This document shows positions 103 through 60,900 of a stretch of DNA of 64,000 nt, piece by piece. The translations under genes were made by a program, and so were the position numbers. Below the pieces are notes generated by a model. The model was not told the DNA's origin. It saw only the letters and a list, made by a program, of their open reading frames with translations, and made no database searches. Within the stretch, counting starts at the first letter, position 1. Each line of letters opens with the position of its first letter. The stretch is taken from contig CAJINV010000004.1 in assembly GCA_905178155.1 (NCBI GenBank), forward strand, positions 9,205,159 to 9,269,158, in the 5' to 3' direction. The DNA comes from Amoebophrya sp. A120 (lineage: Eukaryota; Protista; Dinoflagellata).

Positions 103-3100
103 ATGAGTCCAAAAAAAAGAATCTTCATGGTGCACCAGTCTGCGCCACAGAGGACAGTGGAGACGATGGACGCGCAAGTAGCCTATCAAATGTAAAAATG
201 TCTGGGTCTGGAAGATTCTGAGACTTGTCATGCATGTTTTGTATTGGCCATGATGTCTGTGATGCATGCCCTAGCATCACAGATTTTTTGAGGGCTTCGC
301 GATGCCTATTCCGCATGACAAATGCCCTCTCCGCGTAGCAAAAATTGCGTTTCCTTTGCTGCTCATGCAATACAGATTTTTTTGGAGTCCAAATTCAGCA
401 TCACCTCAGGGTTCCAGGGTTCCAAATTCAGCATCACAAATTGCATTCTTCCAGACCCAGACATTTTTACATTTGATATAGCCGCGAAGATGACAACTTC
501 AACTCCATCCAGCTGCAGTCCACCCTCCAGCACCTGTAACAAAGGGTCCCCGTCACAAGCAAGTGACCTACAACACGTAGGATCGGCGGGACGGGGTCGT
601 GAAGTAGAGGTGGTTTCGGTTATTTCCTCCACTTCTTCTATGGATGTGTCAGGATCGAAATCAACAAAATCGAAAAATTTGTGATGCATAAAATCGATAC
701 CAGTTGGACCCACAGTTTTCAAGTGGCGCATGACAAACTTCGGGAGCTGCAAAATCCAGTCTGGTGTCGTGCTGTTTGGGCAAAGAAGACTGCTCCTGTC
801 ATGCTGCTCTGGCAACGCGTCTTCTTCCCCTAAACAGGCTTGCAATCGATCTCATTTGCCTTCTCCCCAACACAGGCCTTCCGTGCCCTACATTTTATGC
901 ATTACAAGTTTTTCGATTTCGTCGATTTCGATCCTGACACTCCCATATCTTCCTGCCAAGTACAACCAGCTCCGCAGACCACGGATCAGGAACCAGCAGA
1001 CCAGCAGCACGAGAAGTACTACCAAGATCAAGATGGAACAAATTTTTTCCAGAAGGCTAGTAGTACAACAACGCAGCAAGCCCAAGCCGTCGAGATGTTG
1101 GCAGTCCCCACTGGAGGTGAAAGTGCTGCCACTGCAGCGCGAGGAGAAGGAGGACCTGCTACTCGTGGAGATAAGGAAGATGGCGCGTGTGCAGTCCAAG
1201 TTGTCCGAGCAGGAGTTTCTTCGTCCAACTGTTCGGGCGAAGATTTGCAAGGGCATATCTTCATGCAGGAGGATACAGCACGTCCACATGACATGAACGA
1301 GGATTCCCTGGAGTTGCAACCACACAACAAAATCAAGGGCGCGAAGAACGCGAAGGACAGCAAGACATCCTCCGCGGCCCCAACTACATTTGGCTGTCCT
1401 AGTACAACATCAGCTCTATCTACTACAACTACTACTCGTTCCTCCGCGCTGCGCCCGTCCGCCGCGCGAGTCAGCTTCGTGAGGCAGCGCCTGCAGGAGA
1501 AGCACCAGGAGCGGCTGCGGCAGGCCAAGCTGGTGCCGACATTGCAGCGGTATGTCGCGGCGTGTCTTGCGATGGTGATGGCGTTTTCCTACGGGTGCTG
1601 GTCTTTCTCCAAAAGAACGCTGAACACCGCGGTTGCAGTAGTGAAAAACTTCTGGCGCGAACGAGCGGTCTACTTGGGCTACGTCTACAAGCTGGTCTTC
1701 AACAGCTTCTACTACGTGGAGGTGCTCATCCGGTCATCTTTCTCGTGGGGGAAAAGTGCAGTTTGCGCAGCTTGGGGTTTCATTTGCTCCTTCACAGCTG
1801 ACATCGTCTTTCATCTTCTTCATACAGTACCATCGGGGGCTAGTTCTTCGTGTACTTCTGGTCCTCTGCAAGAAGAGGCACAGGCACAAAAGCCGGGAGC
1901 CGCGGCGAAAAAGCCTTCTTCAAAGATGACTACCAAGCGAAAAATGAAGGGGAAAACGAAAATGATAAACATGGGCGAACAACAAGAAGATCCGTTTTCA
2001 CCACGACAGGCCGGCGGGACAGACACGGCATCAACATCTTCAAACCACGGGCACGATGAAAATCAAGATACCCCTTGTTGCGACGGGACTGTTGTTGTTG
2101 TAACTGTGGTGTGTCCACCACCTCCCGCGAACAACGGTCTTGCAGGCTTTTGGCTTCGACTGCAGCAGGCAGTGATATTTGCAACCACCGCTGGAACAAG
2201 TCAAATTCTTCTGCGAGTAAAAGGTGCAGCGGGGCAAGCGCTGGCTTTTCTGCGCCGAATGCAACTCGTTTACTGCCAACGCTGGAAAAGTAGAGCCAGC
2301 CGGCGGGGGCAGTGGTGGCAAGTGTTTTGCGTTTGCTTATCAAACGGAAAAATCCCCCCTCCCCATATCAAAACGGAATTTCTGATGCTGGATTTGTGTA
2401 CACAAATCAGGTTTGTATTGCAGAGAAGCACTGCGGCCAGATCCCCAGGCTAGGTAGGGGCGTATGGGTCTAGTTGTTCAGCATGGCAAGCGGCTCACTT
2501 TTAGGGCCAACAGCATGACAAATCGCCTCCATAGTGCGGCGGAAGCTTCTGCCCTTGTCTTCTTGCAAGACAAATGTGATTTGTGACCTCAAATCAGCAA
2601 GACAAATTTGCGGAAACATACCTTTTCGATATGGGGAGGGGGGATTTTTACTTTTGATATTGCTTGCGGCTTGTGGAGTTTCTTGCGCTCGTCACGTACC
2701 TCTGTTACAGCTGGGTATGCATTGCAAACATGTCTGGGTCTGGAAGAGTGCATATTTGTCATGCTTGTCTGGCATGACTCTTAAATCTGTCATGCACGTT
2801 ACCCAAGAGAGCCGTTTTGCTGTCATGCAAAAACGCAGTTTGTCATGCAGAATAGGCAACACCTAGAAGCTCAAAAGCTTGTCATGCTGAGCCAGCAGTT
2901 GTGACCTTCATGATACGCCGCCCAGCAACATCACAAGTTTCCAGACCCAGACACTTTTACAATCCATACTGGGACCACTTGTACGACAACTACACCGCGA
3001 CGACGTCCATTTTCTCGTCGTCCATGTGGTACAACAACTACGCCGGGGGTCCAAGGGACGAAGGGAGAAGTACAACCACTACGGTTCTTGAGCACAGAAG

Positions 3101-4589
3101 CAACATGCTGAGTAAAAATTTACATTTTCCCAGCACGTCTCCCTCTCGCTCTCCGAGCAGCTCCTGGAGCGCCACGACGACCTCCGCGAAAGAGATGAAA
3201 ACTAGCAGTAGCACTAGAGGACTCCTGTCTACTAGTACAAAAGGGAGCGAAGAAGCCGAAGGTTTTATTACCTCCCACGGGGGCAGGGGGACGATCACGA
3301 AGACGAACAGGAACAACTACAACCGGAAACAAGCGTCGTGGCTGCAAGTCCTTCCTCATACTGGTGCAGTGGAGAGGACGACGACTGTCGAGGAGGACTG
3401 CCTGCTCGGGGGTGAGCAGCGGAAGGAGCACGAGCAGGCGGTGGAGAACGAGAACAAACGCATCAAACGCAAGGAGCTACTAGTAACCGAAATCCACCAA
3501 GAGCAACACCATCATATTAGCCATCACCAGTACCGCAGCACCACCAAGAGGATTTTTCTGTTTGCGAACGCGGAGAAGATCGCACTCGTGCAGCAAGAAA
3601 GTGGAACCGACGACGACATGGTCGTTGTTGAGCAGGTGCAAGAAGGGCTAACCGACGACGACATGGTCGTTGAGCAGGAGATGCTGGCAGGCGGGCCGGA
3701 TGGTCGTGAAAAACAACTTACTATTTCGGAAGATGAAGATGACACAGCCGTCGCAGCTGCGGAAATGTTTTTGAACACGGCGAGAACAGTATTACAGTGA
3801 AAAATGCCCCCACCCCCAAAGTTGCAAAAAATTGTGATGCGAAGTTTCCGAATGAAAACTTTTTGCCATGCATGAAAGGAGAAGTATGAATGTTTCTGAT
3901 GCACAGTCTAGCTGTGTCTCGCATCGCTTGCATGAGAAGCGCCAGTCTTGCTGGGGTCTTTTGCAATACAAATTTTTGCTATTCACGATTGGAAGCCTGT
4001 GCTGCTGATAGATGCAAGAGGGCAAATGTTTCATTTGGAAAGGTTTGCAATACAAAATGCCACCAGGTGGCATTTTTCATTGTAATAAACAGCAAACTCA
4101 AATCCAGCTGCTGCGGGGGCGCCCGCCCTGGACGAGGTGCTAGGTACCACGCCTGCGTTAGCCGGAAGAACCACCACCACGACGTCTTCGGATGTTGCAG
4201 CCAACAAGGTGCTGGCCAGCAACATGGACAAGAAGGTGCTCGTCAGGGTCAGGCAGTTCGGCGGGAAAGAGGTGTCTGGAACTACTCGTGGTCCTGGGCG
4301 ACGTGCAACAAGATTCAACCGACCTTCTGCAGTAGCTAGTACATCGACCTCCGCGGTGGATGAAGAAGCCTCACGGCGGGCAATAACAATGAGCGCGTTT
4401 CTGCAACAGCAGACGGCAAAAAAGAAACGGGTCGGCGAAAACGAAGAGAAGACGTCGCTGCAGAAACGAACCAAGGAGCAACAAGGCCGCGAAAAACAAA
4501 AGCGAAATTTGAAGGTGCGGATCACTAAGATATGCAATCATGTCTGCTTCTGGGAGAATGCGCGTGTAGTTTGTCGTGGATTTACTTAA
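103..4589 (+). CDS. Hypothetical protein (~995 aa) split by 5 TA...TA elements; hydrophobic stretches
   Basis: ATG at 103. Removing each element plus one 5-bp repeat joins ORFs 322, 840, 2901 and 4137 in one frame (VA|AKM, TS|CQVQ, CVC|LRLV, SW|DHLY, ART|ANSN). The 3' end is uncertain: a possible GT donor lies at 4515. Confidence 0.75.
184..478. mobile_element. Introner, family B
   Basis: TIR TATCAAATGTAAAAATGTCTGGGTCTGGAAG; flanking repeat TAGCC. Confidence 0.9.
639..947. mobile_element. Introner, family C
   Basis: TATGG..GTGTCAGGATCGAAATC and its inverse; repeat TCTTC. Confidence 0.9.
2338..2659. mobile_element. Introner, family D
   Basis: TATCAAA..AAAAATCCCCCCTCCCCATATC and its inverse; repeat TTGCT. 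Confidence 0.9.
2716..2968. mobile_element. Introner, family B (second interior type)
   Basis: TGTCTGGGTCTGGAA TIR; repeat CTGGG. Confidence 0.9.
3790..4087. mobile_element. Introner, family F
   Basis: TATTACAGTGAAAAATGCC / GGCATTTTTCATTGTAATA; repeat AACAG. Confidence 0.9.
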
Positions 4590-4955
4590 CTAGGTATTTT
4601 AGATACATGCACTGGAATGCGCTCAAAGCATCGCAGTTCGTTTATTTGTGAAGGCGTCTCAATGCATACCTTGACCTCCCCCTCGCATGTTGGCTAGAAA
4701 ATATGCATACCTCGCATGGGATTGGGATGAAATAACTCGCTCTACTTTATTTCCTACCCAGACGTGCCGGGCAGCTTCTTGAATTTTGGTGCTCATGCAA
4801 CAGTAGAAAAACAAATGTTCATGTTTTTGTTTGGTCTGTGTTCGACTTCGAGTCGTGAGAGTCAGTTAGCACAAGAAGTACGACGCATAATTCTATATTC
4901 CAAACGACCCAGAGGACAACATGTTTATTGCACATGCATAATCGACCAAAAAAGG

Positions 4956-7900
4956 CTGGAGTTTTTGCGGACGAGCGCACGCGTCACAGCGCAGAAGAGG
5001 ACGTCGACCGGCGAGGGTACCGGCACATCAGCAAGAAATAAACGTGTTGAACACGAACAAAAGACGTCGACCCGCGAGGGAGCAAGAAATAAACGTGTTG
5101 AACACGAACAAAAACATCTTCAGAAGCAAAAGCAGAAAGTTCATTTCGTCGACGCCTCTGCTGCTGTCGATCACCTGAACGCGCTGGTCGGGGAGCTTCA
5201 AAAGAATAATAATGCGGACGTAATGAACGAAATGATCCAGAACCTTGCCACCCACGCGGGGGAAAATGACGGCGCATTGAAGGACTATCTGGACCACATA
5301 CCGCTGGACGAGCCAAGAGGTCAGGCTCCAGGTGGCGAGCAGTTGATGCATGAGGCCTGCTATGGATTGCAAAAGTATAATCTAGCTATAATTTGAATTT
5401 CACGAAATTATTTTTAGCTCTGCTCAGCATGACAAGAAATCAAGTGGAATTTGTCATTCTGCTTTACCTTCTTGGGAACGCGAACGACATTTGTATATAT
5501 GCATGATTGCGATTAGTACGAGTGTGATACTTTTGCACTGGATACCTGCGTACTGATGGCGTTGGACGAGCAGTTCCCGGATTTGCTGATATGCCTTGCA
5601 AATATGTTTGGGTCGGGAAAGAATGGGATTTGTGATGCAAGATTTCGATCGTGGGAGATGCCAAAACCTGTATTGCACGAGCAGCAAAAAGAGAACTCAG
5701 AGTTTTGCCACCCCTAGAGGGCGCCTCTCATACCGGATAGGCATGAGCATGAAGAAAGCAAGCCTTCGTGTTCGTGATGCAAGCTGTGTTGCTAGCACAT
5801 GCAGTATGTTGGCATGGCGAGTCATGTACAATTTGCATGAAGACACCCTCTCCCCCCCGATCTTCCAGAGAACCTGAACCGAGACATACTTGCAGTTGAT
5901 TGCTGACATCGTGGGACGACAAAGACACTCCTGACAACCTAAATGACGACACTGTTTCGGTCGAACAAGAACATCTAAACCACATCTTCTACACCGAATC
6001 GGTGCCGGAGGGCAGCCCGCCCGATTACTCCGGGGAGGAGGGTGCGAACGGGATTAGATTGGACCGTTTCCGGGATGACGTGGCAAAGTACCAGGAAGCC
6101 GCCTACGGCGCAGTGGATCACGATCCAAATGATAATTTGAAGTTCAATACGGATGTGCCGGACGGGAAGCAATATATGACTCTCCCAGAGGGAGGCTATG
6201 GCTCGCTCAGGTGTTACAATGATTTCAACAGACTGTTAGTACCGGGAATATGAAAGCGGAGTAGAGTTCGATTTGTAATGCAAAAGCCAAAGTCGCTTTG
6301 GCTTTCACTTTCAAAATTTGCATGAAATTTATTTATATTTTTCTATAATCCAATTCGGATTGGAATTATTCCAATCGCGATCTATCGCAGATGTAGCTAG
6401 TATCCTCATAGAACGACGATTTCCTTCGGACGGTCCAAAGTTCAGTAAAATTATCTAGCTAAATTTGCATATGCGAAAAATAGTTGGCCGTGGAGCAGAA
6501 GCTCAATCTGTACCATTTTGGTCGTCATGTCGTAGTCGCGCAAGACAAACGTGACGAGAGGACTGTTCTTTCATTGTAAACTACAGTTCTTAGATGAAGA
6601 AATTGCAACACTTGAGCAGGTGATAGAGGCATGAAGGAGTTTCTCATGGAGGCCCGAGCGAGTATACGGCACGACCCCGGCAATGAGAATGACCTTATCT
6701 TTCCTCCGGAAAATCGAAGAGACAACCAGATCGCTCCCTTTGAACTGAATGAAGACGCGCGAAGGGCCATGCTAGCGGCCTTGATCGAACAATACCCCAA
6801 AAGGTTTGACGGGGGATTTGCAAACGACTTGGATGGACAGACTTCGCCCTTGGAGCATATCAACGACCTCAGTCACTACGTGACGTCGACGAGTCCCAAC
6901 GGGATCGATATTTTATGGGAAAATCCCCCCTTCCCATACTCAAAGCGGAAATTTGTAGTTGCTGACTCTTCGTGTAGTACACAAGTCCATTTATATTGCA
7001 TAACGGGAAACAAGGAAGGGCGCTTTGTAGTTTTCTGTAGGCGGAGATTTCTGTCGTGTCTGTTTAGGCCGGAGAGAAGGCGTCTGTGATGCCAAGCAGA
7101 TGATCATAGGCAGTGCCTCCGACGTAAACAGGGTCGTTAGGATCATCTAGTAGCTCAGATGTAGTTGTTATCCTTATCCTCGCAGCAATACAAAATGATC
7201 CGTGTATAATGCAAAAAATCATGTTACACAAATCTCTGACTCTGATTGAATATGGGGGCGAGGGTAGTGGATTTTTCATCTTCATAATCGAGAAGCTTGA
7301 ACTAAAAGCCGACGTCACCGAAGACCAAGTCCAAGATCTCCTTCGAAGATTCGACGACACAGACGGCAAGTTCCACTGGAACGACGTGGACATGGACGAA
7401 TTTCGCAAGGATTTCTACCACGCCATGCCTATTCCAGAGAAAAGTTGTACGCCCATATCAGCAAGAGGATATATAGAAAAATGATAAAATTATTCGTACA
7501 ATTGGAATAGCGGGTGTTCTTTGATAGTTATATTTTTACGGCACAAAAAACTCCGTGAAGATGCTCGCATGGTATGGGTGTGCTTTTTCATCTTTTTCTC
7601 TTTGATAATGCCCGAGCAGTACCAGAGAGACCACGGGGAATTGTTGCCCTACTACATGCGCAGCCACGAGCAAGTGGACGAAATGGAATTCTCCTCCCAA
7701 TACCTCGCCCTGCCTGCAGAACGCGAAGGCGGAAAGGAGCTGCACGACTTCATCCTGGGCACCGTATCTGAGCAGCCAGTATGGCGCTCTCAAAGAACGT
7801 TTACATGGATCGCAGCTGGTGCGTAATTTTCTGATGCAAAAAGAACTGCGCGTACGAGCAGAAGAGGGGCGGCAGCTTGTGTGTCTTGTTTCACTACGAT

Positions 7901-10900
7901 GCATAGTAACAGACGCGCAAGCTTTTATCGGCATCATTCATTGCATGATTTGGGACAGATTGTACTATCGCTATTGAGCGCCTCGGCCTCCGTATCTTCA
8001 TTATAAATATAGCTTGATGTTGTTGGTGCGGACGAGTGAATGATGTGATACTGATTAGTCGCTCATCTGCGGGGCAAGTCATAATCATATTACCATTATG
8101 ATGTTAAAGAGGTGAGCCGGCTGCCATCTTTTTCCAATGTTAAAGGGGGGAATGGAGGTGCCCCGGCTGCCATCTTTTTCCAATGTTAAAAGGGGGAATG
8201 GAGGTTCCCCGGCTGCCATCTTTTTCCAATGTTAAAAGGGGGAATGGAGGTGCTCCGGACATGGTCCGCCCACCGCGCTTTTTTCCAGTGTTAAGAGGGG
8301 GAATGGAGGTGCCCCGGCTGCCGCCTACCTTTTTCCAATGTTAAAAGGGGGAATGGAGGTGAGCCGGCCGCCATCTTTTTCCAATGTTAAAAGGGGGAAT
8401 GGAGGTGAGCCGGCTGCCATCTTTTTCCAATGTTAAAAGGGGGAATGGAGGTGAGCCGGCTGCCATCTTTTTCCAATGTTCAAAGGGGGGACGGAGGTGA
8501 CCCGTCCGCCATCTTTTTCCAATGTTAAAAGGGGGAATGGAGATGAGCCGGCTGCCATCTTTTTCCAATGTTAAAAGGGGGAATGGAGGTGAGCCGGCTG
8601 CCATCTTTTTCCAATGTTAAAAGGGGGAATGGAGGTGAGCCGGCTGCCATCTTTTTCCAATGTTCAAAGGGGGGACGGAGGTGACCCGTCCGCCATCTTT
8701 TTCCAATGTTAAAAGGGGGAATGGAGATGAGCCGGCTGCCATCTTTTTCCAATGTTAAAAGGGGGAATGGAGGCGATCCGGCTGCCATCTTTTTCCAATG
8801 TTCAAAGGGGGGACGGAGGTGACCCGTCCGCCATCTTTTCCCTCCCAATGTTAAAAAGGGGGAACGGAGGTGAGCCGGCTGCCATCTTTTTCCAATGTTA
8901 AAAGGGGGAATGGAGGCGATCCGGCTGCCGTCGCATCTTTTTCCAATGTCAAAAGGGGGAATGGAGATGCCCCGGCTGCCATCTTTTTCCAATGTTAAAA
9001 GGGGGAATGGAGGTGAGCCGGCTGCCATCAACGCCCGTCGGTTTTGTCTCCTCCTTTATATCAACGCCCGTCGGTTCTGACTCAGGTGGGGCATCCCCCT
9101 CGTCAAAGGGTTCATCCTGATCGGCCATCTTCCGAGATTTTTCGCAAAGTCCGTCGGATCCGTCTCCTTTTATATCCGCGCCCGTCGGCTTTGTCTCCTC
9201 TTTTATATCGGCGCCCTTCGGTTCCTTCCGACCCAGATGGGCCATCTCCCTCCTCAGAGGGTTCATCCTGATCGCCCGCCTTCCGGGATTTTTGACAAAG
9301 TCCGTCGGATCCTTCACGAGCCCCATTCTGCTGCCGAGATTTTTGACAAGCGCCGGCGGTGTCTCCTGCTTTATATCAACACCCGCCGGCCCGACCCATG
9401 TGGGGTGGGCCACGCCATCCCCCTCCTCAAAGTAAGGGCTCATCCTGATCGGCCACCGCGGGTCCACCATGTTCGACCACCCCAAGAGGGGGAGGGGGGG
9501 GGGAAANNNNNNNNNNNNNNNNNNNNNNNNNNNNNNNNNNNNNNNNNNNNNNNNNNNNNNNNNNNNNNNNNNNNNNNNNNNNNNNNNNNNNNNNNNNNNN
9601 NNNNNNNNNNNNNNNNNNNNNNNNNNNNNNNNNNNNNNNNNNNNNNNNNNNNNNNNNNNNNNNNNNNNNNNNNNNNNNNNNNNNNNNNNNNNNNNNNNNN
9701 NNNNNNNNNNNNNNNNNNNNNNNNNNNNNNNNNNNNNNNNNNNNNNNNNNNNNNNNNNNNNNNNNNNNNNNNNNNNNNNNNNNNNNNNNNNNNNNNNNNN
9801 NNNNNNNNNNNNNNNNNNNNNNNNNNNNNNNNNNNNNNNNNNNNNNNNNNNNNNNNNNNNNNNNNNNNNNNNNNNNNNNNNNNNNNNNNNNNNNNNNNNN
9901 NNNNNNNNNNNNNNNNNNNNNNNNNNNNNNNNNNNNNNNNNNNNNNNNNNNNNNNNNNNNNNNNNNNNNNNNNNNNNNNNTTTGGATTCCAAAAAAATCT
10001 GTATTGCATGAGCAGCAAAGGGAGTGTAATTTTTGCTACGCGGAGAGGGCATTTGTCATGCGGAATAGGCATCGCGAGGCCCTCCAAAAATCTGTGATGC
10101 TAGGGCATGCATCACTGACATCATGGCCCAGGTAAAACATGCATGACAAGTCTAAGAATCTTCCAGACCCAGACATTTTTACACTTGATATAGCGTATGA
10201 CGATCCGGACTTCACTCTCCGCACCGAAGATGGACCGAATAACCAACATCTAGCGGAACTCAAGAATCCGGACAAGCAAGAGGCGCTGCTGAGGGCATTG
10301 AAGTTACAGTTCCCTGACAACGCGGCTATACAGGACTTGCAAAACGGAGCGGGTAATCTCGGAAAGGTGGACGACCAGGCTGGGTTCGACTGGAAGGAAG
10401 TGGACGTGCATCAGCTCAAACACGACTTCAAGCATGAGTTCGCGAATGTGCTGGACAGGAACGCTGACGGGCAATTAACCTGGACCGAGATGTGCATCAC
10501 GGGCAAGCGCCACAGTGGCTTTGGAGCCGCGGCCTGCGACGACGACCAGATATCCTGGTCCGAGTGGCCGCTGTCGGACGAAAGTTGGCACCAGATGACC
10601 ACTGCATCATCGGGGACGACCGGAGGTGCATCGACTCACGCCGTCCTGACGAAGGCACAATTCGACAACCTAGAACTGGCCACCCACGACCTCGTGAACC
10701 ACGACGAGCAAGAGACCACACCCCCAGGGGAGTTGAAGATGACGGGGATCGCGAGCGAGCAGGACTGGATGAGGGATGATTATGTTGACCCAGCAGCTCA
10801 CTCGGGCAAAAATCCTGTTCCACATGAGATGCGAACGTTCCTCGACAAGATGACGGAGACAGGTCGGTCGACACACCATCGCGGCCTCAACGGCGTGGAA

Positions 10901-38731: not shown

Positions 38732-40711
<1,980 letters not shown>

Positions 40712-47866: not shown

Positions 47867-50800
47867 ATGGCGCCCGCACCACCGCAGACCATTCACTACG
47901 ACAACAGCGCGGATCAAGAGGAAGATGGGTCTTATTGGATCGGGCCCGAGCGAAAGCCGGATGAATCCAAATCCGATGGACCGATTGAGTGGAAGGGACC
48001 AGCGGGACAAGCGTATTTTTGTTTTTGATATGATTGGAGTTGTGGATGTGGTTGTTTCGTTTGTTGCGTTGCGTTTATCTCAGGAGGTTCTTGCGTACGT
48101 GTGTCGTGTCGCACAATTACAGAAGGGTTCTTTTGATGTCCTGAGGAAAAATCGTAATTCGCCTGAATCTTCACAAACCACCCTCACAGTTCCAGTGTCC
48201 TTGCGAGCGGCAACAACCAGCAGCAGAATTCTAGCTCGGCCTCCTTCTCCCGCCTCACTTCTCCCGGCGTACCGCCCAGCAAGTCCGGACAAGGCGGCTA
48301 CTACGTTATGTACGACGAGCCCTCGGGGAACAAAACGGTGGCGCAGCGGTTTCTCACGACGCAGAGCCAGTGGTTGCAGAAGGTTCGGTACCGGCAGGAG
48401 CTCCGGAACCTGGAAGCGGAGCATGAGAGGATGCGGGAGTGCGTCTTCGAACCGAACAAGGGCAGGGGAAAAAATAGTGCTGCAGGAGGAGGAGCTGCAT
48501 CAGGAGGTGGTGGTCAGAAGTCCTCGAACAGCAAAGGAACTACATCAGCGAACAACAATTCATCATCTTCTGCAGCGCAACATTCTACGGGCAGAAACTC
48601 CACGTCCTCAAAAGACTTGCGGAAGCAAAGCAGAGACGACTTTCTGTACAAGATGCAGATGGCGCAATTGCAGGAGATGAAGAGCATCGAGCAGGCCACC
48701 GCGAGTGCGAGGAAACGAGAGGGATACGACGCGGAGCTCGCTGCACAGGTGCAACATGATCAAGGGGTCGCTGGGGGGAATAGCGGAAATCTGATCATGG
48801 AGGTAAAATACTTGTGAGGAATTACTTCGTATAAAAGTTCAATTCCAATCTTGAAGTTGAACGTGTTAGTTAGGGAACTGCAGCACTCTCACTCTTCGTA
48901 GTTACAATGCAGATTGAAGCAAGCTGTGAGTCTGCGTGGTTCGATGCGCGAAAAAAACTAAAACCCTGCTCCGACTTTCAACAGACCAGCATTGCGTCCG
49001 GCAATTCCTACATCGAAGCGCGCAAGGCGGAAGCGGTGGCTGCAAGATTGGAACAGGAGAAGAAGGAGATGGCCGAGTGCACGTTCCGCCCCAACCTCCG
49101 GCTCAGTCAGCAGAGCTACCGCTGCTACCGGCCGTTCGCAGACAGCACGGGAGTAGAACGGGCAAGCTCTTCGTCCTCCAGTAGGTTCATGCAGAGACGG
49201 AACAACGATCTTAGTTTCAGACCCCGGAGCAGGATAGGAGGGGAACAAATGAGTTACAATGGCACTGCGGTGACGTTTGATCCCAACCGACCTGGTCACG
49301 AGAGGTTTGTTTCAACAACTTCTTCGCAGCAGGACGGGGGTCGGGGTGCTAATCCGGCGGCGCGCACGATTGACTTCGACTTGCAGAAAATTGCGAGAGA
49401 AGAAGGGTTTTACAATTTGAACAACCTGCTAGACGAAGAAGACCTGGCGCTCGCGTCCATGCAACTCTATCACCCGGATAGCACGACGATGGAAAATTTG
49501 AATTACGGCGGAGGTGGTTTGCAGAAGACAGCAATGGGGGCGGACGTTGCAGCCTACGGAGGTGCGAGAAGCCGAGGACGAATGCGCGATATTGGAACAA
49601 ATGGCGACGGGTTTATTGTTGGTGACCAGGAAGAACTGTATGCAGCAGGGGAGGAGAACTATCAGCTGCAAAACCACACCGCCACCTCGAACAGCATCAG
49701 GTCCTACCGCAATGCATCTCCACCGGAGAAGTTTTCTTTTCGCCCAAAAGTGAACGAGCTCCCGGAGGGTTTTCACGCGGCGAAAGTGTACACGGAGACC
49801 AACGTTTTCAAACGCCTGGCGGGAATCAACGAGTCGCCGCCGCCGGGAGCGGAAGATGAATTCTTTACGCCGCCACAGGTACTCTTTGAGTTTGGTGATG
49901 TAGTTCTTCAACTTCTTCGTTGTTTTGCATAGTAACCAAATTGATGTTACTCTTGGTGTTGGTCGATTTGCATGACAGAGTGAGATTCTATCTCTAAAAA
50001 AAACTTTCTATACAGGCCTTCCTGAACCGTCGCGCGCGGGAGCAACAGGAGGAGGAGTCCCGAGAGGAAAGGTTCGTCAGCGAACGAGAGAGGGCCGAAA
50101 CGTACCGACAGTTCCTGCGTCGACAGAACGAAAAACAGTATGAAAAGGAGGACCGTATGGAGGAGCTGGAAAAGAAATACTTCGGCCAGGAGCGGTTTCA
50201 GCCGAGTATAAATCCGAATTCGCGGAAGATCGCCTTGAACAACACAAAACGGAACTCTTACAATCCCCAGGTCGCCGCGGGGACGACCGGACCCAGTAGC
50301 AGCAGCAACAGCAACAGTTTTAACGGTGGCCCTCGTGGGATAAACAGTTCTTCCTTCCTGAACAACCTCGACAATAGCGACGTGCAAAAAACTTGCTACG
50401 GCGACAACAGTAACCTGGACGGGACGAAAATGTCGCTCGGTCGGTCTCTACAATTCAACGCCGTGCAAAAACGACTGGCAAGCGAACAGGGCGGTTTATT
50501 AGGTGGTCTTCCAGGCGGAGGACATGAAAATGTAAACACTTCTACTTCCAACCGCACGCTTCTTGAACGGGAAGAAAGACGGATGTTCGGAAAGGATAAC
50601 AGCCAAAACGTGTTCGCCAGTGTGTTGGAGGAGGAGGATGAGAGGAGGTTGAACCAGCGAAATAAAAACGGGATGTTGAATGCGGCAGGAGGATCTTCTT
50701 CCAACTCCCGCTCGAATTCCGCCTCCCGCACCTGGCACGACGAGCAACCGTGTCTGCGCGACCAGTACGTTTTGAAACAGATGCTATGCGTTGCAAAAGT

Positions 50801-53579
50801 ATCGTACTCGTACTAATCGCAATAATGCATGACAAATCTAGTTTCTAAACCTGAATCTGCATGAATAACAAGACCCACGCGTGGGGACAGGGTCCCCACG
50901 CTGGGGCCTTGTGCCCGCCCCTAGTGGCGCTAGTGGGGGAAGGGTGTTCGCCATCGGGGCGGACAGCGTCCGCCCCTCGCCTCACACCAGGCGCGCGCAT
51001 AGTGACTTAGTGCGCGAAACGCTAGTGGGGGAGGGGTGTTCGCCATCGGGGCGGACAGCGTCCGCCCCTCGCCTCACACCAGGCGCGCGCATAGTGACTT
51101 AGTGCGCGAAACGCTAGTGGGGCAAGGGTGTTCGCCATCGGGGCGGACAGCGTCCGCCCCTCGCCTCACACCAGGCGCGCGCATAGTGACTTAGTGCGCG
51201 AAACGCTAGTGGGGGAAGGGCCCTCACCTGTCGCGGCCACCTGTCGCGCCCACCTGTGATGGCCACCTGTCGCGGTCACCTGTCGCGGTCACCTGTCGCG
51301 GTCACCTGTCGCGGTCACCTGTCGAGGTCACCTGTCGAGGTCACCTGTCGAGGTCACCTGTCGCGGTCACCTGTCAAGGTCACCTGTCGCCGGGGGTATG
51401 CGTTACCAGAACCCGGAAGTCAAGCAATGTAAATATTAATTGCACTTTGCTTCTTGGCAAAATTTGTCATGTGAGTCATACTAGTACGATACTTTTGCAA
51501 TGCATAGATGCAGGACAAGAACAAAATACCGCCCACCGTGGACCACGCCTTTCACCCGACCATCAACGCGAAGTCGAGCAAGATCGCGAATAGAAAATCG
51601 TTGCACGAGTTGTCGTAGGAACTGTAAAAGTAACGTACTCATATAAAGTGCATTACAAATTTTGGCAAGAAGAAAAGTGGAATTTATGAATGCTGTTTTA
51701 CCTTAGGAGGGAGATTTGTCATGCATATTTGCAATTAGTACGAATGCGGTACTTTTACAGTTCATATGTCTGTGGGGGATCTGGAGCGGAAACGCGAAAA
51801 GGTGAAACAGTTGAAGGAGCTATCCTGTGCAAAAGTATCGTACTCGTATTGCAATCATGCATTACAAATTTCTTTCTCAAGTCAAATCCGCATTACAAAT
51901 TTTATTTCTCATGCTGAGAAAATTTGTAATGCATTTATACGAGTACGATACTTTTGCAGTTCATAGGAGCAGCGGGACAGCAAATATCAAACGTAAATAT
52001 GTCCTGGTCTGGAAGGATCCGAACTTGTGATGTGTGTTTCGGATCCTACAAAGATCTGTGATGCATAGCGTGCAAAAGGTGCCCACTCCTGGCCATGCTG
52101 AGAGGGCATTTCTCATGCAGAATACGCATCACCAAGGAGCTGCAGAACCTGTGATGCTAGGCCCTGCATTCCAGACGTCGGGGAGCTTGGAACAACTGCA
52201 TGACCACAAATCTCGGAATCTCCCAGACCCAAACATATTTGCATCTGATAGCAAAGAATTCGAGACGATCATCCAGACGAAGGTGGACACAGAAGCGAAA
52301 TTAAAAAAAGCGAAGCAGTACGACGCGGTGGAGCCCCGGACGCAACCGTACCGGAGCTACTACATCAACCAACTGCGGGAGAAGCATATGAAATGCAAAA
52401 GCATCGTACTAGTATAAATCGCATGACAAATCCCCTCAGCACGAAAAGTGGAATTTGTAATGCGGATTTAGGTTAAGAAGGAGATTTGTAATGCATGACT
52501 ACGATTACTACGAGTACGATACTTTTGCACAGGATAAAGCAGCAGAAAGTAGACGAAAAAAGGGAAAAGGACAAGCAGCAAAGGGAGGAAAAGGAACTGA
52601 AAGAGTGTATCCTGAGTAAAAATGACCCCACACCAGAGTCAAGATGGGAAATCCGCTAGACAAATTAGCCACCCCTGGTTGTTTCGCATGACAAGTTTAT
52701 CCTCGTAGCGTAGTCCTGTTTAGCTACTTCCGAAGCATTACAGATGTAGCGCGTCATGCTGATTCTAGCATCAGAAATTCCAAAACAGGATTAGATAGAA
52801 AATGGCTCTCTTGGGGCTTCGCATGAGAAACTTTTTTGGCATGCAGATTTGCATGACAACTCTGGGGTGGGGACATTTTTACTCAGGATAGAGTGCCGGT
52901 TCCAGCCAAAACTTGTCGCGGAAAACTACTTCAAGAAGTTGGTCAACAGCGGCGCGCACTACAACAGTAGTTCTAACTTGGGAGCAGGAGGTCCAGGTGG
53001 TGGTGGTAATTTGGGTCAACAGCAGCAACAGCCGTCGCGGAGTTTGTTTCTAAAACCACCCGCGATGCCCCCGAACGGTTCTGCAGCTGGTGCTGCCACG
53101 ATGCTGCGGTCGTCAAAAGGCTCTTCTGTCACGAACAACATCGGAACGACAGACGCTGGCTCGTCTGCGGCGGGGGAGGTGATGCAGGAGGAGCATAACC
53201 GCGACTCAAGAGAAACTACTGCACCGTTCGTTATGGGAGGTGGAGCACAAAATAGCCATGCGGAGAGTGGAGGGGCGGCGAATGTTGGTACTGGTATGTC
53301 TTTACTGCTGTGCAAGTGCAGATTTTTGCGCTTTTTGAAAATGCAAGGAGAATCATGCATGGTCTGTGCATGATAAAGACATGAAAATTCTTCAACTTCA
53401 AATCAAGTTGTACGATACGAGATGAAAACAATTTACAGGGACTAGCAGCACCGCAAATAATCGCAGAAACGGTCCTCCCCCCATCGAAGGCGTCATGGGC
53501 TAGGCAAGACACTCGGATGGACGAGCTGGTACTAGTAAGGAGAAAAATGCACAACGATGAAGAAATTTGGTCTAGATAG
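47867..53579 (+). CDS. Hypothetical coiled-coil protein with repeated ECxFxP motifs; 4 GT-AG introns and 6 element introns
   Basis: In-frame joins via introns 48013-48189, 48803-48912, 49879-50015 and six elements. Motifs ECVFEPN, ECTFRPNL, FSFRPKVN, FQPSIN, FHPTIN and ECRFQPKL. The last exon is uncertain. Confidence 0.7.
48013..48189 (+). other. Canonical GT-AG intron
   Basis: GTATTT...TCACAG; in frame. Confidence 0.7.
48803..48912 (+). other. Canonical GT-AG intron
   Basis: GTAAAA...ATGCAG; in frame. Confidence 0.75.
49879..50015 (+). other. Canonical GT-AG intron
   Basis: GTACTC...ATACAG; in frame. Confidence 0.8.
50928..51220. repeat. 92-bp tandem repeat, about 3.2 copies, hairpin-rich
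   Basis: Units start at 50928, 51020, 51112 and 51204; each full unit contains GGGGCGGAC-AGC-GTCCGCCCC. Confidence 0.95.
51225..51390. repeat. 13-bp tandem repeat CACCTGTCGCGGT, about 13 copies
   Basis: Read directly from the sequence. Confidence 0.95.
51616..51766. mobile_element. Introner, family A
   Basis: Starts TAGG; repeat TGTCG/TGTCT. Confidence 0.85.
51821..51965. mobile_element. Introner, family A
   Basis: Repeat GGAGC. Confidence 0.9.
51985..52250. mobile_element. Introner, family B
   Basis: Repeat GCAAA. Confidence 0.88.
52387..52536. mobile_element. Introner, family A
   Basis: Repeat AAGCA. Confidence 0.9.
52608..52890. mobile_element. Introner, family F
   Basis: TATCCTGAGTAAAAATGACCCCACACCAGAGT and its inverse; repeat GAGTG. 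Confidence 0.9.
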
Positions 53580-54905: not shown

Positions 54906-57900
54906 ATGCAAGCCCTCCTCGCGAAAATGTCTTCATCTGCCCCACCGGGACCGGGAGGGGACCAACCTGGCAGAAGAAGTAGCTCCACCCCGACCAATGC
55001 GTCGAAGAACAAGAAAGCCCTTGCGAAAGCGAAAGTCGAGGAGGAGTTTTTTAACAAGAAGTTTTGGTGCCCCCCAGACCTCGTCAAGGGCAGCATGGGA
55101 TTCACCTTCAAGGATAGCACGATCACCAAGATCGAACCCGGGAAGTGGGCCGACAGCGCTGGGCTTAGAGTTGGGGACGAAATCGTGTTAATCGAGACCA
55201 TACCAAGTGCAAAAATGTCTGGGTCTGGAAGAATGCAACTTGTGATGCTACATTTGGATTCCAAAAAAATCTGTATTGCGTGAGTAGCAAAGGGAATGCA
55301 ATTTTTGCTACGCTGAGAAGGCATTTGTCATGCGCAATAGGCATCAAGAATCCCTCAAAAAACCTGTGATGCTAGGGCATGCATCACAGACATCATGCCT
55401 CATGAAAACCCCGCATGACAAGTCTCAGAATCTTCCAGACCAAGACATTTTTGCATTTGATAGACCACCTTCGTCGGAAAAGATCCGATCGTGGAAACGG
55501 TCACCCGCCCGTTGAGACATATGGGAGCGTCAGGTTTGAAATCGTCAAAGTTGAATATAATTTGTAATGCATAAAATGCATGACCCGAGGCACGTGCGTT
55601 GCCGAGCAGGCAAGTGAGGCCGATTGTAAGCCTGTTTGGGGTTACAGCTCGAGCTGCTAAAGTAGCATGAGAAAATCGCTCTTCTTTGCCTAAACAGCAT
55701 GACAAACAGGACTTGGGGACCACCGACATTTGTCTTGCGCCACTTGGAAACTGGGTTCCAACTGGCATCCATTTTATGCATGACAAATTATTTCAACTTT
55801 GTCGATTTCAACTCTGACACATCCATAAGACACAGCAAAATGCTCTCGAAGTCAAGTACGGGGAGTAAGTCGTCTCTGGCGATAACAGATGGTAGTCCTA
55901 GTGCTAGTAGTCCTGGGGCGGCTGTCGTCCTTCCCGATCCGATGCGCAGTAGCCGGTCGGGCATATCTTCAAACATCCCGACAGGCCGCGGGTCGACTAC
56001 TTCTTCCGACGAACAGCTGTCTTCCGGAGTGGAAACCGAGGAGGTGAAGTTCACGCAGTTTGAGTGTTTGTCCCAAACGGAGAAAATCATCCGCTTAAAG
56101 AACAAAAAAGGCGTCGGATTTGTCATTACCCGGAAAATCCACGAAACCGACTTAGAAGAAGCCGCGATCAACCTGCAGGCGGCGTTTCGCGGAAGGAAAG
56201 AAAGGTCCACTTCGGTCGCGGTGGCGAAGAAGCAACAGCTGTTCGCCAACCCCTTTCGGATCGAGCACCCACCTTTATCGGTTCCGTTCGCGCTGCACCG
56301 AAGCGTGGAGCGGAATTTGCACAAGCAGCCGCCGTTGCGATCGGTGTCCGAAACGCCGAGACAGCGGATGATGGAGTTCCGAACCACGCTGAAGAAAGTG
56401 GATGAGTTCGACAGATATAATTCGTCGGCGTCGGGTCGTGGAAATGGTAATGACTTCAGATACGGAGAAGCAGGAACACTATCAGGAGGTCCGTTCTTTT
56501 CGTCTCTTCGTGGTCCTCCTCCTCCGCAAAGAGTTGTTGTTCCTGAAGGGGAAGCAGGTGGCATGTACATGTTGGACAGCGGAGAGGATGAAGACGAGGA
56601 TGCCAGCCGGCTTACCACCCCTCCCCCTCGAGGATCGACACCAAGAGGACAGACGCCAAGAAAGTCTTTGTCTTCCTCCAAAAACTCAACAGCAGACAAT
56701 AAACCGGGGGCTGTTTCCTCAACTCTAACCTTGAACCTTCCCGCCACCAGCTATCGAACCAGCGCTGCTGTGCGGTCCAGAGGACCTGGTAGCAGCTCGC
56801 AACAGCAAGAGCCCCCGATTTTGGAAGACAAGATGCAGAACGCGTTTCTCAAATCGGACTTCTTCGGCCGCGGGCGGCCTTCCTCGATTATCCCGGGAAG
56901 CGGTGCCATTTACGACCGAGAAGATTCCGTCCGGCAAGTGGCCGCGGCGACCACCCGACACAGCCTGCTGATCGACAAAATCGGGTTCACCGCGCAGGAC
57001 AGCAGCGGAAGGACTGTGCCCGTGGTTCCGCTTGGTGGATCAGTACCGCCCGTGCAGAAGTGCAGAATTTTGCCCCTTCCGCCCAAAAGCAAGACTTCGC
57101 CGAACTTGTTTGGTGACCCGAAGAAATTTGGGCAAGCTAATAGAGGAAATAATGCAGGGGTAATAGTCGGCTTGTCAGGCGACGCCGAGGACGAAGTTGA
57201 TGTTGATATCGCAGCGCAGACTCCGGTCAATGGCGATCTTCAAACTGGCAAGATAAAAACTTTTTTCAACAATGTGAAGGAAAATTTCGCTTCGAAATTG
57301 CAGGATGTGAAGGAAAAGGTGCAGGAAAAAAGGCAAATTTCAAGAGAAAAATCCCAGGAAAGGAGGGAAATTCTGATGGAAAAGGTGGAGAAAACAAAAG
57401 AGATTGTGAAGGGGAACGTCGATCTGGTAAAGGAGAAGCTGAAAATTCCGCGCAAAGAACGGGGAAGGAAAAATAAGCATCCGAAAGAAGGACCAGTGAC
57501 AGTTGAATCGGAGGGCGAGGACAGTCCGAGCGAGCCGTCAGAGGAAGACCTGGAGGCGGTCTTACGGCAGACGGAAACGGGAGGAGATTCAGTACAACTT
57601 CCTGGTGCTGCTTCTGCAAGCACGACTGCCGCTTCACCACAGTCAGGTTCCACAGCTGCAGGTCAGAACATCAAATTACCCTCGTCGTCATCTTCGACGA
57701 CAGTAACGAGGACGACACCATCCGGCTACAACAACAATAACCCAGCTTCCTTACGACCCACTGGGTCGTCCTCGTTGCAACCGGTCGGCGGAAGGACTAC
57801 AACTGAGGCTGCAGTAGATCCGCAACAAATTCGGGGCGGCGACACGACGAGGACTACAGGTACTAGTCCCTCCATGGCCAGTACGAAAATCTCAGAGAAT

Positions 57901-60900
57901 AACCGGGGAACGAATTCCCGACGTCAGAACGCCTCTGCAGATGTTCTCTCAGTCCCTGCCCCCAACAACGACCCCCTCGGAGGCCTGGATAGCACCTACG
58001 CGAACGTGCAGGCTTTTGAAACTTCCCTGCACGCCCTGGAGGGCTTGGAAGAGCAGAAAGCCACCGCGCAGGCACTGCTGGGGTCTAAGATGATTCACGC
58101 GTTGACGGTGGCGCACCAGGGGGAAGATCTGTTTAACTTCAACAGCCTGGCAACCCGGACGCAAAAGAGCAAAAGGGAAGACGATAGCAGTGGGAGCGAG
58201 GATGAGTTTACAGAGCCAAAGAATAAGACGAAGACCGCTAAGATGGACGATTTTTTGGGCAAGGAAGGAACCGTGTTCATCGACAAACAGACAAGCCGAA
58301 TCTCCCTGAACGCGCCCCACCCGGCGCAACATCAAAATCTTCAGAGCAACAAGTCTGTGAAGCACACTTCCCGGATTATCGACACCCAGTCCCCTTCCCA
58401 AGCCAGAATCACGGGGTTGAGCTCGCGGGACACCACCGCGGCGCAAGTGCTCCCGAGTTACACGGAAAGTCTACTTCCGGCGGATATGGTGGCGGAGTGG
58501 GAGGAGAACTTCGACTACGGGTATCCGCGGATCCAAGTCCCGCAGGCGGAATCGGATGAGTGGACTTTATCCTCCATGCTGCAGATCGTGAAGCACTGCC
58601 AAACCAGGCCGGAAATGCCGTTACACCCCTTGCTCGTCGTGCGGATGCTGGAAGACATCACGGAGAGCATGGACAAAAAGTACCCCACGCCCGTGAACTA
58701 TTTACAGATCCCGCGGAACGTCGTGGATGAGGAAGTTGTTGGGGGGGATGGTATCATGAGCAGTACTAGTTACAACAATAACGATATCACCGTTGACTAC
58801 GGGGCAAAAGATAACATTAACACGCTCCCTTCGTCCACCGCGAAAGCTTTCCATCACACCCCGTCTGCCGGTACAAATGCTTCTGGTTCGTCCGGCTCCA
58901 TTTTGAACAGCATCCGGCAGAAAGCGCAACAGTCGTCGGACCAGAAACTCGCGGAGAAGGTTCGGAAAATCCGGAAGTCCCGGCTGCCCTCGGTTCTAGA
59001 TTCCGACGCCATCTCCCGTCCGGGGCGCTTAATCGTCGTCGGGGACACGCACGGGCAGTTGACGGACGTGCTGTGGATTTTTTACAAAAACGGGCTACCC
59101 TCGCCCTCCAACGCTTATTTATTCAACGGCGACATCGCGGACCGCGGATTTTACGCGACCGAGATCTTTATGCTGGTGTACGGGTTCATGCTGTTATACC
59201 CCGAAGCGGTCCACATTAACCGCGGGAACCACGAGGATTTGAACATGAATTTAGACCCGAGGTGCGGCGGCTTTTACAAGGAGGTGATCCAGAAATACGG
59301 GCCGAATTTGGGCGAAATCGTGTTCAACACCTTTCTCAAAACCTACGCGATGCTTCCTTTAGCCACCGTGTTGGAGAAGAAGATTTTTGTCGTCCACGGC
59401 GGGTTGTCGAGAGTCCGTGAAGGGAATTTCGAACTACTACGATCGGCGATCGACAACCGGTCGATCTGCATGCCGGATTCCGTCCTGCAATCCGCGGACA
59501 TGGCCTTCGTCGACGCGCTGTGGGCGGACCCGAGCGACAACCCGGGGATTTCCAAATCTTCCCGGGGGCCTTCGATGATTTACTTCGGGCCGGATGTGAC
59601 GCGGCAGTTTTTGGAGGAAAACGGGTTTAAGCAAGTGATCCGGTCGCACCAACCGCCGAAGACGAAGGACGGCGTGAACTGGCACCATATGCATTGCAAA
59701 TATGTCTGGGTCTGGAAACTTGTAATGCTAAAAGTGTAAGTGAATGATGGACGCACTGCAATACGCAGCTATGCATGACAGACTTTTTGGCTGCCATCTC
59801 TTACGTATTCCGTTTCCGCATGGCAAACTGCGTTTTTGCATGACAGGTAAAAGGGCTTTTTCGTGGCTAAGTATGCAGCACAGATTCTCGATCTCGAGTC
59901 ATGCCAGACAAGCATGACAAATCTTGCATCCTTCCAGACCCAGACATATTTGCACTTGATACACCACGACGGCAAGCTAATCACGGTGTTTTCGGCGTCC
60001 AACTATTGCGGGTGGTACGGGAATCAGGGCGCCGTGCTGATCTTCACGCCGTATCAACAATCGAGAGCAAGCGCGCTCGTCGATGCCTTTCACGCACAGT
60101 ATCAACCCCAAGCATTGTCCAGGAGCATCACGCCGATTAGTACTATCGCGAGGCCGCCAGCACCTCCTGGGCTCGTACAAGGTAGTCCACCTGGTGCTGG
60201 TACCACGACGACCAAGGTCGTTCAGCTGGGCGGCCCAAGCAAGTTAACACCGAAAATCGGAGGTCTCCAATTCCAGCCCAGTTTCGAAAATATCGGGAAG
60301 CCGTCTGTGGGGAGCAATAATTCCAAAACCTCCCAACGGTCGGCGGATAATTTTGCGCATGACCCGTATCGGAACAGCAGTGGTAGCGACATGACCGAGA
60401 ACGACAATTGGGCCATGCCGGAGATGGAGGTTGTCCGTCATTTCTCGCCCACCTTTGAAGAGCTCCGAACCGTGGACATCTGCACAAACGACCTCCGCGG
60501 CATGCTGGATCTGCCGTCGTTTTTCCAGCACAAGATGAGACAAAACTTCGCGACGACGCAACTGGAAGTCTCTGCCCAACGCAAATTTCAGTCCCAGGGG
60601 TTGGCGGAGCGGTTGGATAGGCTGGTGTACGAAGTAAAATCGCGAATCGCTCGGTTGATTGTGGAGGAAAAACATTTCCTGTACAAAACCTTCGCGGAGT
60701 TCGAGCACGCAGCGTACCTGTCGAGAAATACGACGCAAATAACTGCGGGAACTTCATCCTCTTCTGGAGTTTTCGACTCAAATTTAGTCCAGGAATACAA
60801 GGTCAGCGAGGTAGACAAGGACGATATTACTTTAACTGCGGGGGGAGAAGAACCAGAACCAATCAGTGACCGTTTCCCAACGAAAAACCCAAGCGAAAGA

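What the first reader, a model, noticed from the sequence alone, without database searches (positions are those of the whole stretch)
184..59961. One 8-9 bp motif, (T)TGT[C/A/G]ATGC, is repeated inside otherwise unrelated families
Seen: TTGTCATGC, TTGTAATGC, TGTGATGC and their complements (GCATGACAA, GCATTACAA, GCATCACA) occur several times per element on both strands in families A-I. Examples are ~225 and ~313 (B), ~2513 (D), ~12600-12730 (G), ~27800-27900 (E), ~33690-33820 (H) and ~52680-52860 (F). By eye the motif is rare in exons, canonical introns and intergenic DNA. Inference: it is a shared cis-element read by one protein, either a transposase binding subterminal repeats or the factor that marks the elements for removal. 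It would unify families whose TIRs differ.
Basis: partly seen in the sequence, partly recalled or inferred. Interest (0 to 1): 0.8.

Follow-up and report, generated by a model that had tools for sequence, protein, structure and literature searches.

The report
Shared phased motif across diverse introners
Many dissimilar mini-transposons that interrupt this protist's genes all carry the same short DNA word, conserved and often spaced three helical turns apart, which is likely the binding site of one protein that copies them all.

Summary
The motif is real. TGT[C/G/A]ATGC (12-bp consensus AYYTSTVATGCW) has 125 copies. 113 lie in 41 elements delimited without using the motif: 9.3/kb inside, 0.23/kb outside. 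The elements have TAY..RTA ends, 5-bp target duplications and interrupt reading frames. They match the published Amoebophrya A120 introners.

Families do not align once the motif is masked. Within families the motif core diverges 4-5 times less than spacers. The middle base toggles C/G/A but avoids T.

The motif has a grammar, confirmed in 320 elements from another assembly: same-strand copies sit 30-33 bp apart (14 of 32, then 10 of 28; chance 1-2). The first inward copy lies about 30, 40, 51 or 62 bp from the tip. Elements insert in both orientations, one family carries one-way arrays, facing copies do not co-vary, and worn copies lose the motif as fast as spacer.

This points to a double-stranded DNA site needed for copying, not an RNA removal mark. 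No transposase, binding or splicing was shown. The elements are known; I did not find the motif in print.

The parts
184..478 (.). Family B element, TSD TAGCC; motif at 226+, 258+, 274-, 313-, 431-
639..947 (.). Family C element; motif 680+, 728-, 797+, 899-
2338..2659 (.). Family D element; one exact motif (2513-), four by weight matrix
2716..2968 (.). B-TIR element with a different interior (B2); five same-strand motifs 2757-2880
3790..4087 (.). Family F1 element; matrix sites at +41, +72, +103 (31-bp steps)
4527..4940 (.). Worn B-like element, borders uncertain, no motif left
5361..5544 (.). Worn family A element; one exact motif
5590..5901 (.). Worn B-like element in an ORF; one exact motif (5631+)
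6197..6625 (.). Family I element; one exact motif (6274+)
6909..7286 (.). D-like worn element K; one motif (7085+)
9981..10190 (.). Family B element cut by the N gap; motif 10054+, 10093+, 10141-
11498..11758 (.). Family B element (TAC..GTA ends)
11795..12101 (.). Family C element
12529..12768 (.). Family G element; motif 12572+, 12624-, 12674+, 12719-
12892..13174 (.). Family B element
13302..13536 (.). Family G element
13581..13952 (.). Family C element
14051..14194 (.). Family A element; no exact motif, four weak variants
16319..16640 (.). Family D element
16912..17289 (.). Worn C-like element, no exact motif
25024..25183 (.). Family A element
25849..26110 (.). B2 element
26171..26326 (.). 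Family A element (reverse orientation)
26458..26602 (.). Family A element; contigs of run X1 leave the window at both borders
27450..27712 (.). Family B element
27769..27977 (.). Family E element; motif 27800+, 27846-, 27890+
28585..28801 (.). Family E element
28851..29003 (.). Family A element (reverse)
29112..30428 (.). Family B element carrying a nested, motif-free 1047-bp TTA..TAA element (29324-30370)
31103..31252 (.). Family A element
31313..31604 (.). Family C element with a deletion in one TIR
32812..32968 (.). Family A element inside the long ORF that ends in a papain-type protease domain
33090..33240 (.). Family A element
33658..33866 (.). Family H element; motif 33690+, 33721+ (31 bp apart), 33814+
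34107..35257 (.). Worn element with about 1 kb of motif-free nested DNA; one exact motif (35205+); no 5-bp TSD
   Evidence: sequence
36392..36544 (.). Family A element (reverse)
37073..37232 (.). Family A element (reverse)
43327..43643 (.). Family C element; motif 43451+ and 43483+ (32 bp apart)
50785..51506 (.). Family A element with nested tandem repeats
51616..51766 (.). Family A element with a changed tip (TAG)
51821..51965 (.). Family A element; motif 51859-, 51890- (31 bp apart), 51925+
51985..52250 (.). Family B element
52387..52536 (.). Family A element
52608..52890 (.). Family F2 element; nearly one-way array (52686-, 52735-, 52851- and matrix sites)
55201..55462 (.). Family B element
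55520..55827 (.). Family C element
59688..59961 (.). B2 element, TSD CACCA, just after the calcineurin-like phosphoesterase domain match, inside the same ORF

Best explanation
The motif is a conserved 12-bp word repeated in a fixed geometry inside non-coding TIR elements, and it is likely a double-stranded DNA binding site for one trans-acting protein, predicted to be the transposase or its partner, that would copy all families. Shown: elements with invariant TAT tips and 5-bp duplications at random targets; a motif core under constraint; pairs 30-33 bp apart; first site phased to the tip. Inferred: the protein binds these arrays on one helix face, brings the two ends together and positions a DDE-type cut at the TAT tip. 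Copies with damaged sites leave fewer descendants, while TIR interiors drift in mirror fashion into new 'families'. Removal from mRNA would rest on the terminal hairpin and TSD (published model, untested here), not on the motif.
For: Enrichment: 113 of 125 hits in motif-blind elements; a leave-one-family-out matrix finds 11-18 sites/kb in 10 of 12 groups against 0.12/kb outside. No between-family alignment after masking except an 18-nt A/C hit and a 33-nt D/K TIR hit. In 277 copies of 12 subfamilies, substitutions are 4.5% in the core and 22.5% in spacer; the V base changes as freely as spacer (24%) but rarely to T: 13 of 114 changes from C, against 43% C>T in spacer. Same-strand spacing of 30-33 bp: 14 of 32 (null mean 1.8; 0 of 5000 even with best-window correction), and 10 of 28 in 13 groups absent from the window (null 1.3). 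Spacers between paired sites are near background between groups (0.29 against 0.25). First inward sites lie at 30-31, 38-41, 50-53, 62 and 75-76 bp (Rayleigh at 10.5 bp, one end per group, n=12, median p 6e-4). Eight of nine families insert both ways in coding DNA. 17 of 19 coding F2 copies show strong sites in one orientation only, 10 one way and 7 the other. No sense/antisense difference in site decay (42 sites, p 0.80). Facing V bases are complementary in 74 of 184 cases, about chance. Worn copies (122 against 356 intact) gain 1.4 points of core divergence and 0.5 of spacer; continued constraint is rejected at p 0.005. Precedent: Lemi1 binds Emigrant subterminal repeats cooperatively (PMC1636448, abstract only).
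Against: No transposase or autonomous element was found in the window or in 141 loci, and PMC7789003 (section 16) reports none in A120. No binding data exist. Sites run through the whole element, not only near the ends. Spacings other than 30-33 are not clearly phased (8 of 18 near multiples of 10.5, counted by hand), and the best-fitting period for first sites is 11-11.5 bp. Family A points its outer sites the other way. The worn-copy effect is small, and assembly errors would mimic it. Two motif-free TIR elements with 5-bp TSDs occur only outside exons (J, 14 nt after a stop; one nested in an element), as a removal-mark model predicts. Seven of the 13 'new' groups share B or F2 TIRs. Motif bases are more often paired in predicted RNA folds than spacer (75% against 57%).
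Confidence: 0.6

Rival explanations
1. A host dsDNA-binding factor reads the phased motif and marks the element, during transcription, for removal from the pre-mRNA. The motif spread because only marked elements are tolerated in exons.
For: It explains orientation independence and helical spacing equally well. All 222 confidently coding elements keep at least one strong site. The two motif-free TIR elements sit outside exons. U1 snRNA was not detected in A120 or A25 (PMC7789003 section 10).
Against: Worn copies lose core bases as fast as spacer. I, K and other worn elements with 0-1 exact sites still sit in ORFs that need their removal. Site density is the same in 22 non-coding-like and 222 coding insertions (1.66 against 1.59 per 100 nt, p 0.52).
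Confidence: 0.17
2. The motif works in RNA, either as a single-strand protein site (UGUVAUGC or GCAUBACA) or as stems formed between opposite copies that help fold the intron for removal.
For: 176 of 222 coding elements carry both orientations. Motif bases are 75% paired in minimum-energy folds against 57% for spacer (77 elements).
Against: 46 of 222 coding elements show strong sites one way only, split 25/21; F2 17 of 19 (13 of 19 at a looser cut). No strand bias in decay or in counts on the transcript (351 against 310). Facing V bases do not co-vary. A fixed 31-32-nt direct spacing has no obvious single-strand meaning.
Confidence: 0.08
3. No present function: all families descend from one ancestor with a 32-bp tandem unit, and the motif is a relic kept alike by conversion between copies.
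For: All groups share TAT tips (47 of 48 ends). A and B share outer TIR variants. Spacers are slightly above shuffled identity (0.29 against 0.25). TIR arms show mirrored changes, so homogenisation does occur (114 same against 22 different double changes).
Against: The core is 5 times more conserved than spacer while its own middle base varies freely among three bases and avoids the fourth. Conversion would equalise V between sites and arms, and it does not.
Confidence: 0.08
4. The sites bind a host transcription or chromatin factor that keeps elements accessible or transcribed and so favours copying indirectly; the cutting enzyme reads only the TIRs.
For: It fits DNA-level phasing and selection at propagation. 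TIR positions 10-28 are conserved within families (about 11% substitutions), as transposase sites would be.
Against: The motif is nearly absent from intergenic DNA (0 hits in 7 stretches), which is unexpected for a host promoter factor. TIR cores differ wholly between families, which would need many transposases, and none is reported for A120.
Confidence: 0.07

Closest known systems
Amoebophrya A120 introner elements (Farhat et al. 2021, PMC7789003)
   Same: TAT start, variable next bases, then an A-run; terminal inverted repeats; short direct repeats (5 bp in the Fig. S19 legend); about 240 nt; many families; inside coding genes.
   Different: The sections and supplement text I read describe only terminal IR and DR motifs and argue against general transposase mobilisation. 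No internal motif, spacing or phasing is described there; figures were not visible to me.
MITEs with transposase-bound subterminal repeats (Emigrant/Lemi1, PMC1636448; En/Spm TnpA and Ac subterminal repeats recalled, not looked up)
   Same: Short non-coding TIR elements with an internal repeated motif in both orientations near the ends.
   Different: There a motif belongs to one family and its known transposase. Here one motif is shared by families with unrelated TIR cores and interiors, fills the whole element, sits in exons, and no transposase is known.
IS3EU/GingerRoot DNA transposons (PMC10045372, passages)
   Same: TA..TA termini; integrase-like enzymes would fit the Ginger-like ORF reported for A120 family 38 (PMC12130899, passages).
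   Different: Their TSD is usually 6 bp; here it is 5 bp. No transposase was available to compare.

Membership tests
Amoebophrya A120-type introner elements | Terminal inverted repeats starting TAT, then variable bases, then an A-run | tested here: met
   TAT in 47 of 48 group ends; A at positions 11-15 in 35-45 of 48; positions 4-9 vary like spacer
Amoebophrya A120-type introner elements | 3-5 nt direct repeat at the borders | tested here: met
   Exact 5-bp TSD in 36 of 47 window elements, 4/5 in 7; no target preference
Amoebophrya A120-type introner elements | Interrupt coding sequence | tested here: met
   Removing the element plus one TSD gives at least 90 stop-free codons each side on + for 40 of 46; Pfam domains lie in these ORFs
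Amoebophrya A120-type introner elements | Removed from mRNA as non-canonical introns | tested here: inconclusive
   Two raw RNA runs laid 0 reads and a possible RNA run barely covered exons; no further read data obtained
MITE (non-autonomous TIR transposon) | Short, non-coding, TIR plus TSD, many dispersed copies | tested here: met
   18-29 contigs with different flanks end at single element borders in run X1
MITE (non-autonomous TIR transposon) | Cognate autonomous element or transposase | tested here: inconclusive
   None in the window or 141 loci (549 kb, overlapping); no whole genome held
Transposase-bound subterminal repeats | Repeated, conserved motif at fixed places relative to the ends | tested here: met
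Transposase-bound subterminal repeats | Specific binding by the element's transposase | not testable with these tools
   Needs EMSA or pull-down
IS3EU/GingerRoot | TA..TA termini | tested here: met
   48 of 48 group ends start TA, but the finder required TAY
IS3EU/GingerRoot | TSD usually 6 bp | tested here: not met
   5 bp in the window, where 3-8 bp was allowed
IS3EU/GingerRoot | IS3/integrase-like DDE transposase | not testable with these tools
   No candidate protein found

The most novel reading that the evidence does not exclude
One enzyme system mobilises all TAT-tipped introner families by reading a helically phased internal motif array instead of the TIR sequence. The TIRs then need only stay self-complementary and drift into hundreds of families. 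The same, possibly domesticated, protein also licenses their removal from transcripts in place of U1-type recognition.
Probability: 0.15. Interest if true: 0.9.

Novelty: new variant of a known kind. Interest (0 to 1): 0.63.

Why it matters
For these introners both the mobilising enzyme and the removal route are open questions. The describing paper found no transposase in A120, no U1 snRNA and no unifying signal among 1,954 families (PMC7789003, sections 10, 11, 16). A shared, constrained, phased 12-bp site supplies a bait and built-in controls (V to T, spacing shifted by 5 bp) for pulling out the responsible protein. It also suggests that families defined by TIR sequence are one system, and that TIR identity can be a poor guide to which enzyme moves a MITE.

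Tried and rejected
No whole genome was held.

RNA evidence: no run on record as RNA holds the stretch. Raw RNA runs X9 and X10 laid 0 reads, which is no test; X3 gave too little exon cover. Splicing stays untested. X1 may be the window's own source and is not counted as independent.

No autonomous element: long TIR pairs in 141 loci and the window were composites or chance pairs. Two ORFs inside nested DNA had no Pfam match.

Viral contigs searched with the paired motif: 120 loci, none similar to the elements, spacings mostly 30 or 33 as in codon repeats; rejected as unrelated.

'The tip is a motif copy' (TATGCATTGCAAA resembles it) was rejected, because positions 4-9 vary like spacer. 'An internal TATGC is avoided as a false end' was rejected as the reason for the missing T, because TATGC is common beside the motif.

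A G.U versus A.C test for RNA pairing of TIRs showed no bias (91:85). The singleton versus shared test (core/spacer 0.47 against 0.16) points the same way as but is biased by saturation, so it is not relied on. The uncleaned worn-copy test gave +2.0/+2.0 points; 48 rows (35 composite or partial, 8 length, 3 few sites, 2 with N) were dropped. Masked-interior clustering over-split family A and was replaced.

Likeness to Sox-Oct, RBFOX or ApiAP2 words is recalled only and was not tested. Three look-ups of earlier findings returned nothing.
Full report
OBSERVATION. The window holds 125 exact copies of TGT[ACG]ATGC on both strands, including every example quoted, and its core is the top 8- and 9-mer. 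A motif-blind search for TAY..RTA pairs with inverted ends and flanking duplications gave 69 candidate pairs, from which I picked 41 non-overlapping elements. They hold 113 of 125 hits in 12.2 kb, against 12 in 51.3 kb. Dropping motif-less J and adding seven worn or truncated elements by eye gives 121 in 14.1 kb and 4 in 49.4 kb; shuffles of the elements give mean 2.85, max 9. The second count is partly circular; the first is not. 34 of 47 elements have two or more exact copies, 10 one, 3 none. Flanks extend the word to AYYTSTVATGCW.

THE ELEMENTS. They are mostly 145-430 bp, with TAT tips and exact 5-bp duplications in 36 of 47 at targets with no base preference. Removing an element plus one duplication restores at least 90 stop-free codons on each side on the + strand for 40 of 46. 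The ORFs include phosphoesterase, papain-type protease and dual-specificity phosphatase domains. In DNA run X1, 18-29 contigs with unrelated flanks end at single element borders, so they are dispersed repeats; X1 may be the window's source. These features match the Amoebophrya A120 introners of PMC7789003; the organism is inferred from that match only. Removal from RNA was not shown here.

UNRELATED FAMILIES? With the motif masked, the only between-family BLAST hits are an 18-nt A/C match and a 33-nt D/K TIR match. A matrix trained without a family finds 11-18 sites per kb in 10 of 12 groups, 2-3 per kb in I and K, and 0.12 per kb outside. Remote common ancestry is not excluded, since all share the tip.

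SECOND DATA SET. They hold 320 intact elements (0 in shuffled loci), 315 with at least one exact motif. With the window's elements they form 24 groups. The V base is C 500, G 278, A 185, T 10.

CONSTRAINT. In 277 copies of 12 subfamilies, substitutions from consensus are 4.5% in the core, 22.5% in spacer, 24% at V, 0.7% at the tips, 20% at positions 4-9 and 11% in the TIR core. Changes at V go to T in 13 of 114 cases from C, 5 of 102 from A and 5 of 116 from G, against 43%, 21% and 23% in spacer. Copies are related, so these counts are not independent events.

GRAMMAR. With one element per group, 14 of 32 same-strand neighbour spacings are 30-33 bp (null mean 1.8; 0 of 5000 placements reach it, also with the best 4-bp window). 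In 13 groups with no window member, 10 of 28 (null 1.3, max 7); seven of these 13 share B or F2 TIRs. The DNA between paired sites is near background between groups (0.29 against 0.25). First inward sites lie at 30-31, 38-41, 50-53, 62 and 75-76 bp from the tip (Rayleigh at 10.5 bp, n=12 groups, median p 6e-4; best-fit period 11-11.5). Three B-DNA turns are 31.5 bp (established knowledge). Longer spacings are not clearly phased, and family A has its outer sites reversed.

DNA OR RNA? 222 of 320 scored elements sit in confidently coding DNA, and eight of nine families occur in both orientations. On transcripts the two readings number 351 and 310, and site decay does not depend on strand (42 sites, p 0.80). 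46 of 222 show strong sites one way only, split 25/21; in F2, 17 of 19. Facing V bases are complementary in 74 of 184, about the 39% I computed by hand from base frequencies. Against this, motif bases are 75% paired in predicted folds against 57% for spacer. TIR cores show mirrored changes (114 same, 22 different, 482 one-sided), which the motif does not.

COPYING OR REMOVAL? Copies with a worn TSD or tip (122, against 356 intact; 48 rows dropped) carry 1.4 points more core divergence (95% CI 0.4-2.3) and 0.5 more in spacer (-1.0 to 2.1). That rejects continued five-fold constraint after insertion (p 0.005) and fits neutral decay. The effect is small, and assembly error would mimic it. Site density is equal in coding and non-coding-like insertions. 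Worn I and K, with one exact site each, still interrupt ORFs. In favour of a removal mark, two motif-free TIR elements with 5-bp duplications lie only outside exons.

MECHANISM. Most likely (0.6): one protein, the transposase or its partner, binds the phased array on dsDNA, joins the ends and cuts at TAT with a 5-bp stagger. Selection acts while copies are made, and the TIR cores drift in mirror fashion into families. Binding, enzyme and removal route are all inferred. No autonomous element was found. Rivals are a host DNA mark for removal (0.17), an RNA-level signal (0.08), a relic (0.08) and an indirect chromatin factor (0.07).

LITERATURE SEEN. PMC7789003: abstract, sections 10, 11, 12 and 16, supplement part 2 of 5 and search passages; figures not visible. 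PMC12130899: passages, 22 of 58 A120 rows of one table, and a search of 14 supplement files for three motif strings with no hit, though element sequences may not be held there. PMC10045372, PMC12005148, PMC9860276 and PMC11453091: passages. PMC1636448: abstract. Roy et al. 2023 is not held and could bear on novelty. Searches found no description of this motif; one search listed 15 of 519 papers, all on unrelated topics by title.

VERDICT. The elements are known. The shared, constrained, helically spaced internal site appears undescribed in what I could search, and it makes the open question of their mobilisation directly testable. New variant of a known kind; interest 0.63.

Noticed in passing
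window 14852-15895: 1044-bp element J with TAT..ATA ends and a 5-bp TSD, 14 nt after a stop codon. It lacks the motif but repeats its own word (GAATCAC/AATCACC family); possibly a sister system with a different site. No copy in the 141 loci.
   Followed up: partly
window 29324-30370: GC-rich 1047-bp TIR element with TTA..TAA ends and TSD TAAAA, nested in a B element and motif-free. TTA tips are described for A25 introners.
   Followed up: partly
window 8109-9505: 46-bp tandem array (about 19 copies) and a 151-bp repeat next to the 474-N gap, which also cuts a B element.
   Followed up: no
window 50928-51390: 92-bp (3.2 copies) and 13-bp (12.8 copies) tandem repeats nested inside an A element that still keeps its ends and TSD.
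   Followed up: no
window 34107-35257: Element without a 5-bp TSD; the frame is restored by removing it with no extra bases. It is flanked by a duplicated exon stretch of about 35 bp.
   Followed up: partly
L112:381-489 and four similar copies: 109-bp minimal family: two TIRs and two same-strand sites 32 bp apart. A ready-made minimal probe for binding tests.
   Followed up: partly
all families, TIR positions 10-26: Left and right arms change in mirror fashion (114 same against 22 different double changes), while positions 4-9 mostly do not; no G.U over A.C bias on the transcript.
   Followed up: partly
window 38927-40710, 46403-47102, 21114-23830: Glutamate dehydrogenase and NIP7 genes carry only ordinary short introns and no elements; a 900-codon ORF has none either, while neighbouring genes carry up to 18.
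   Followed up: no
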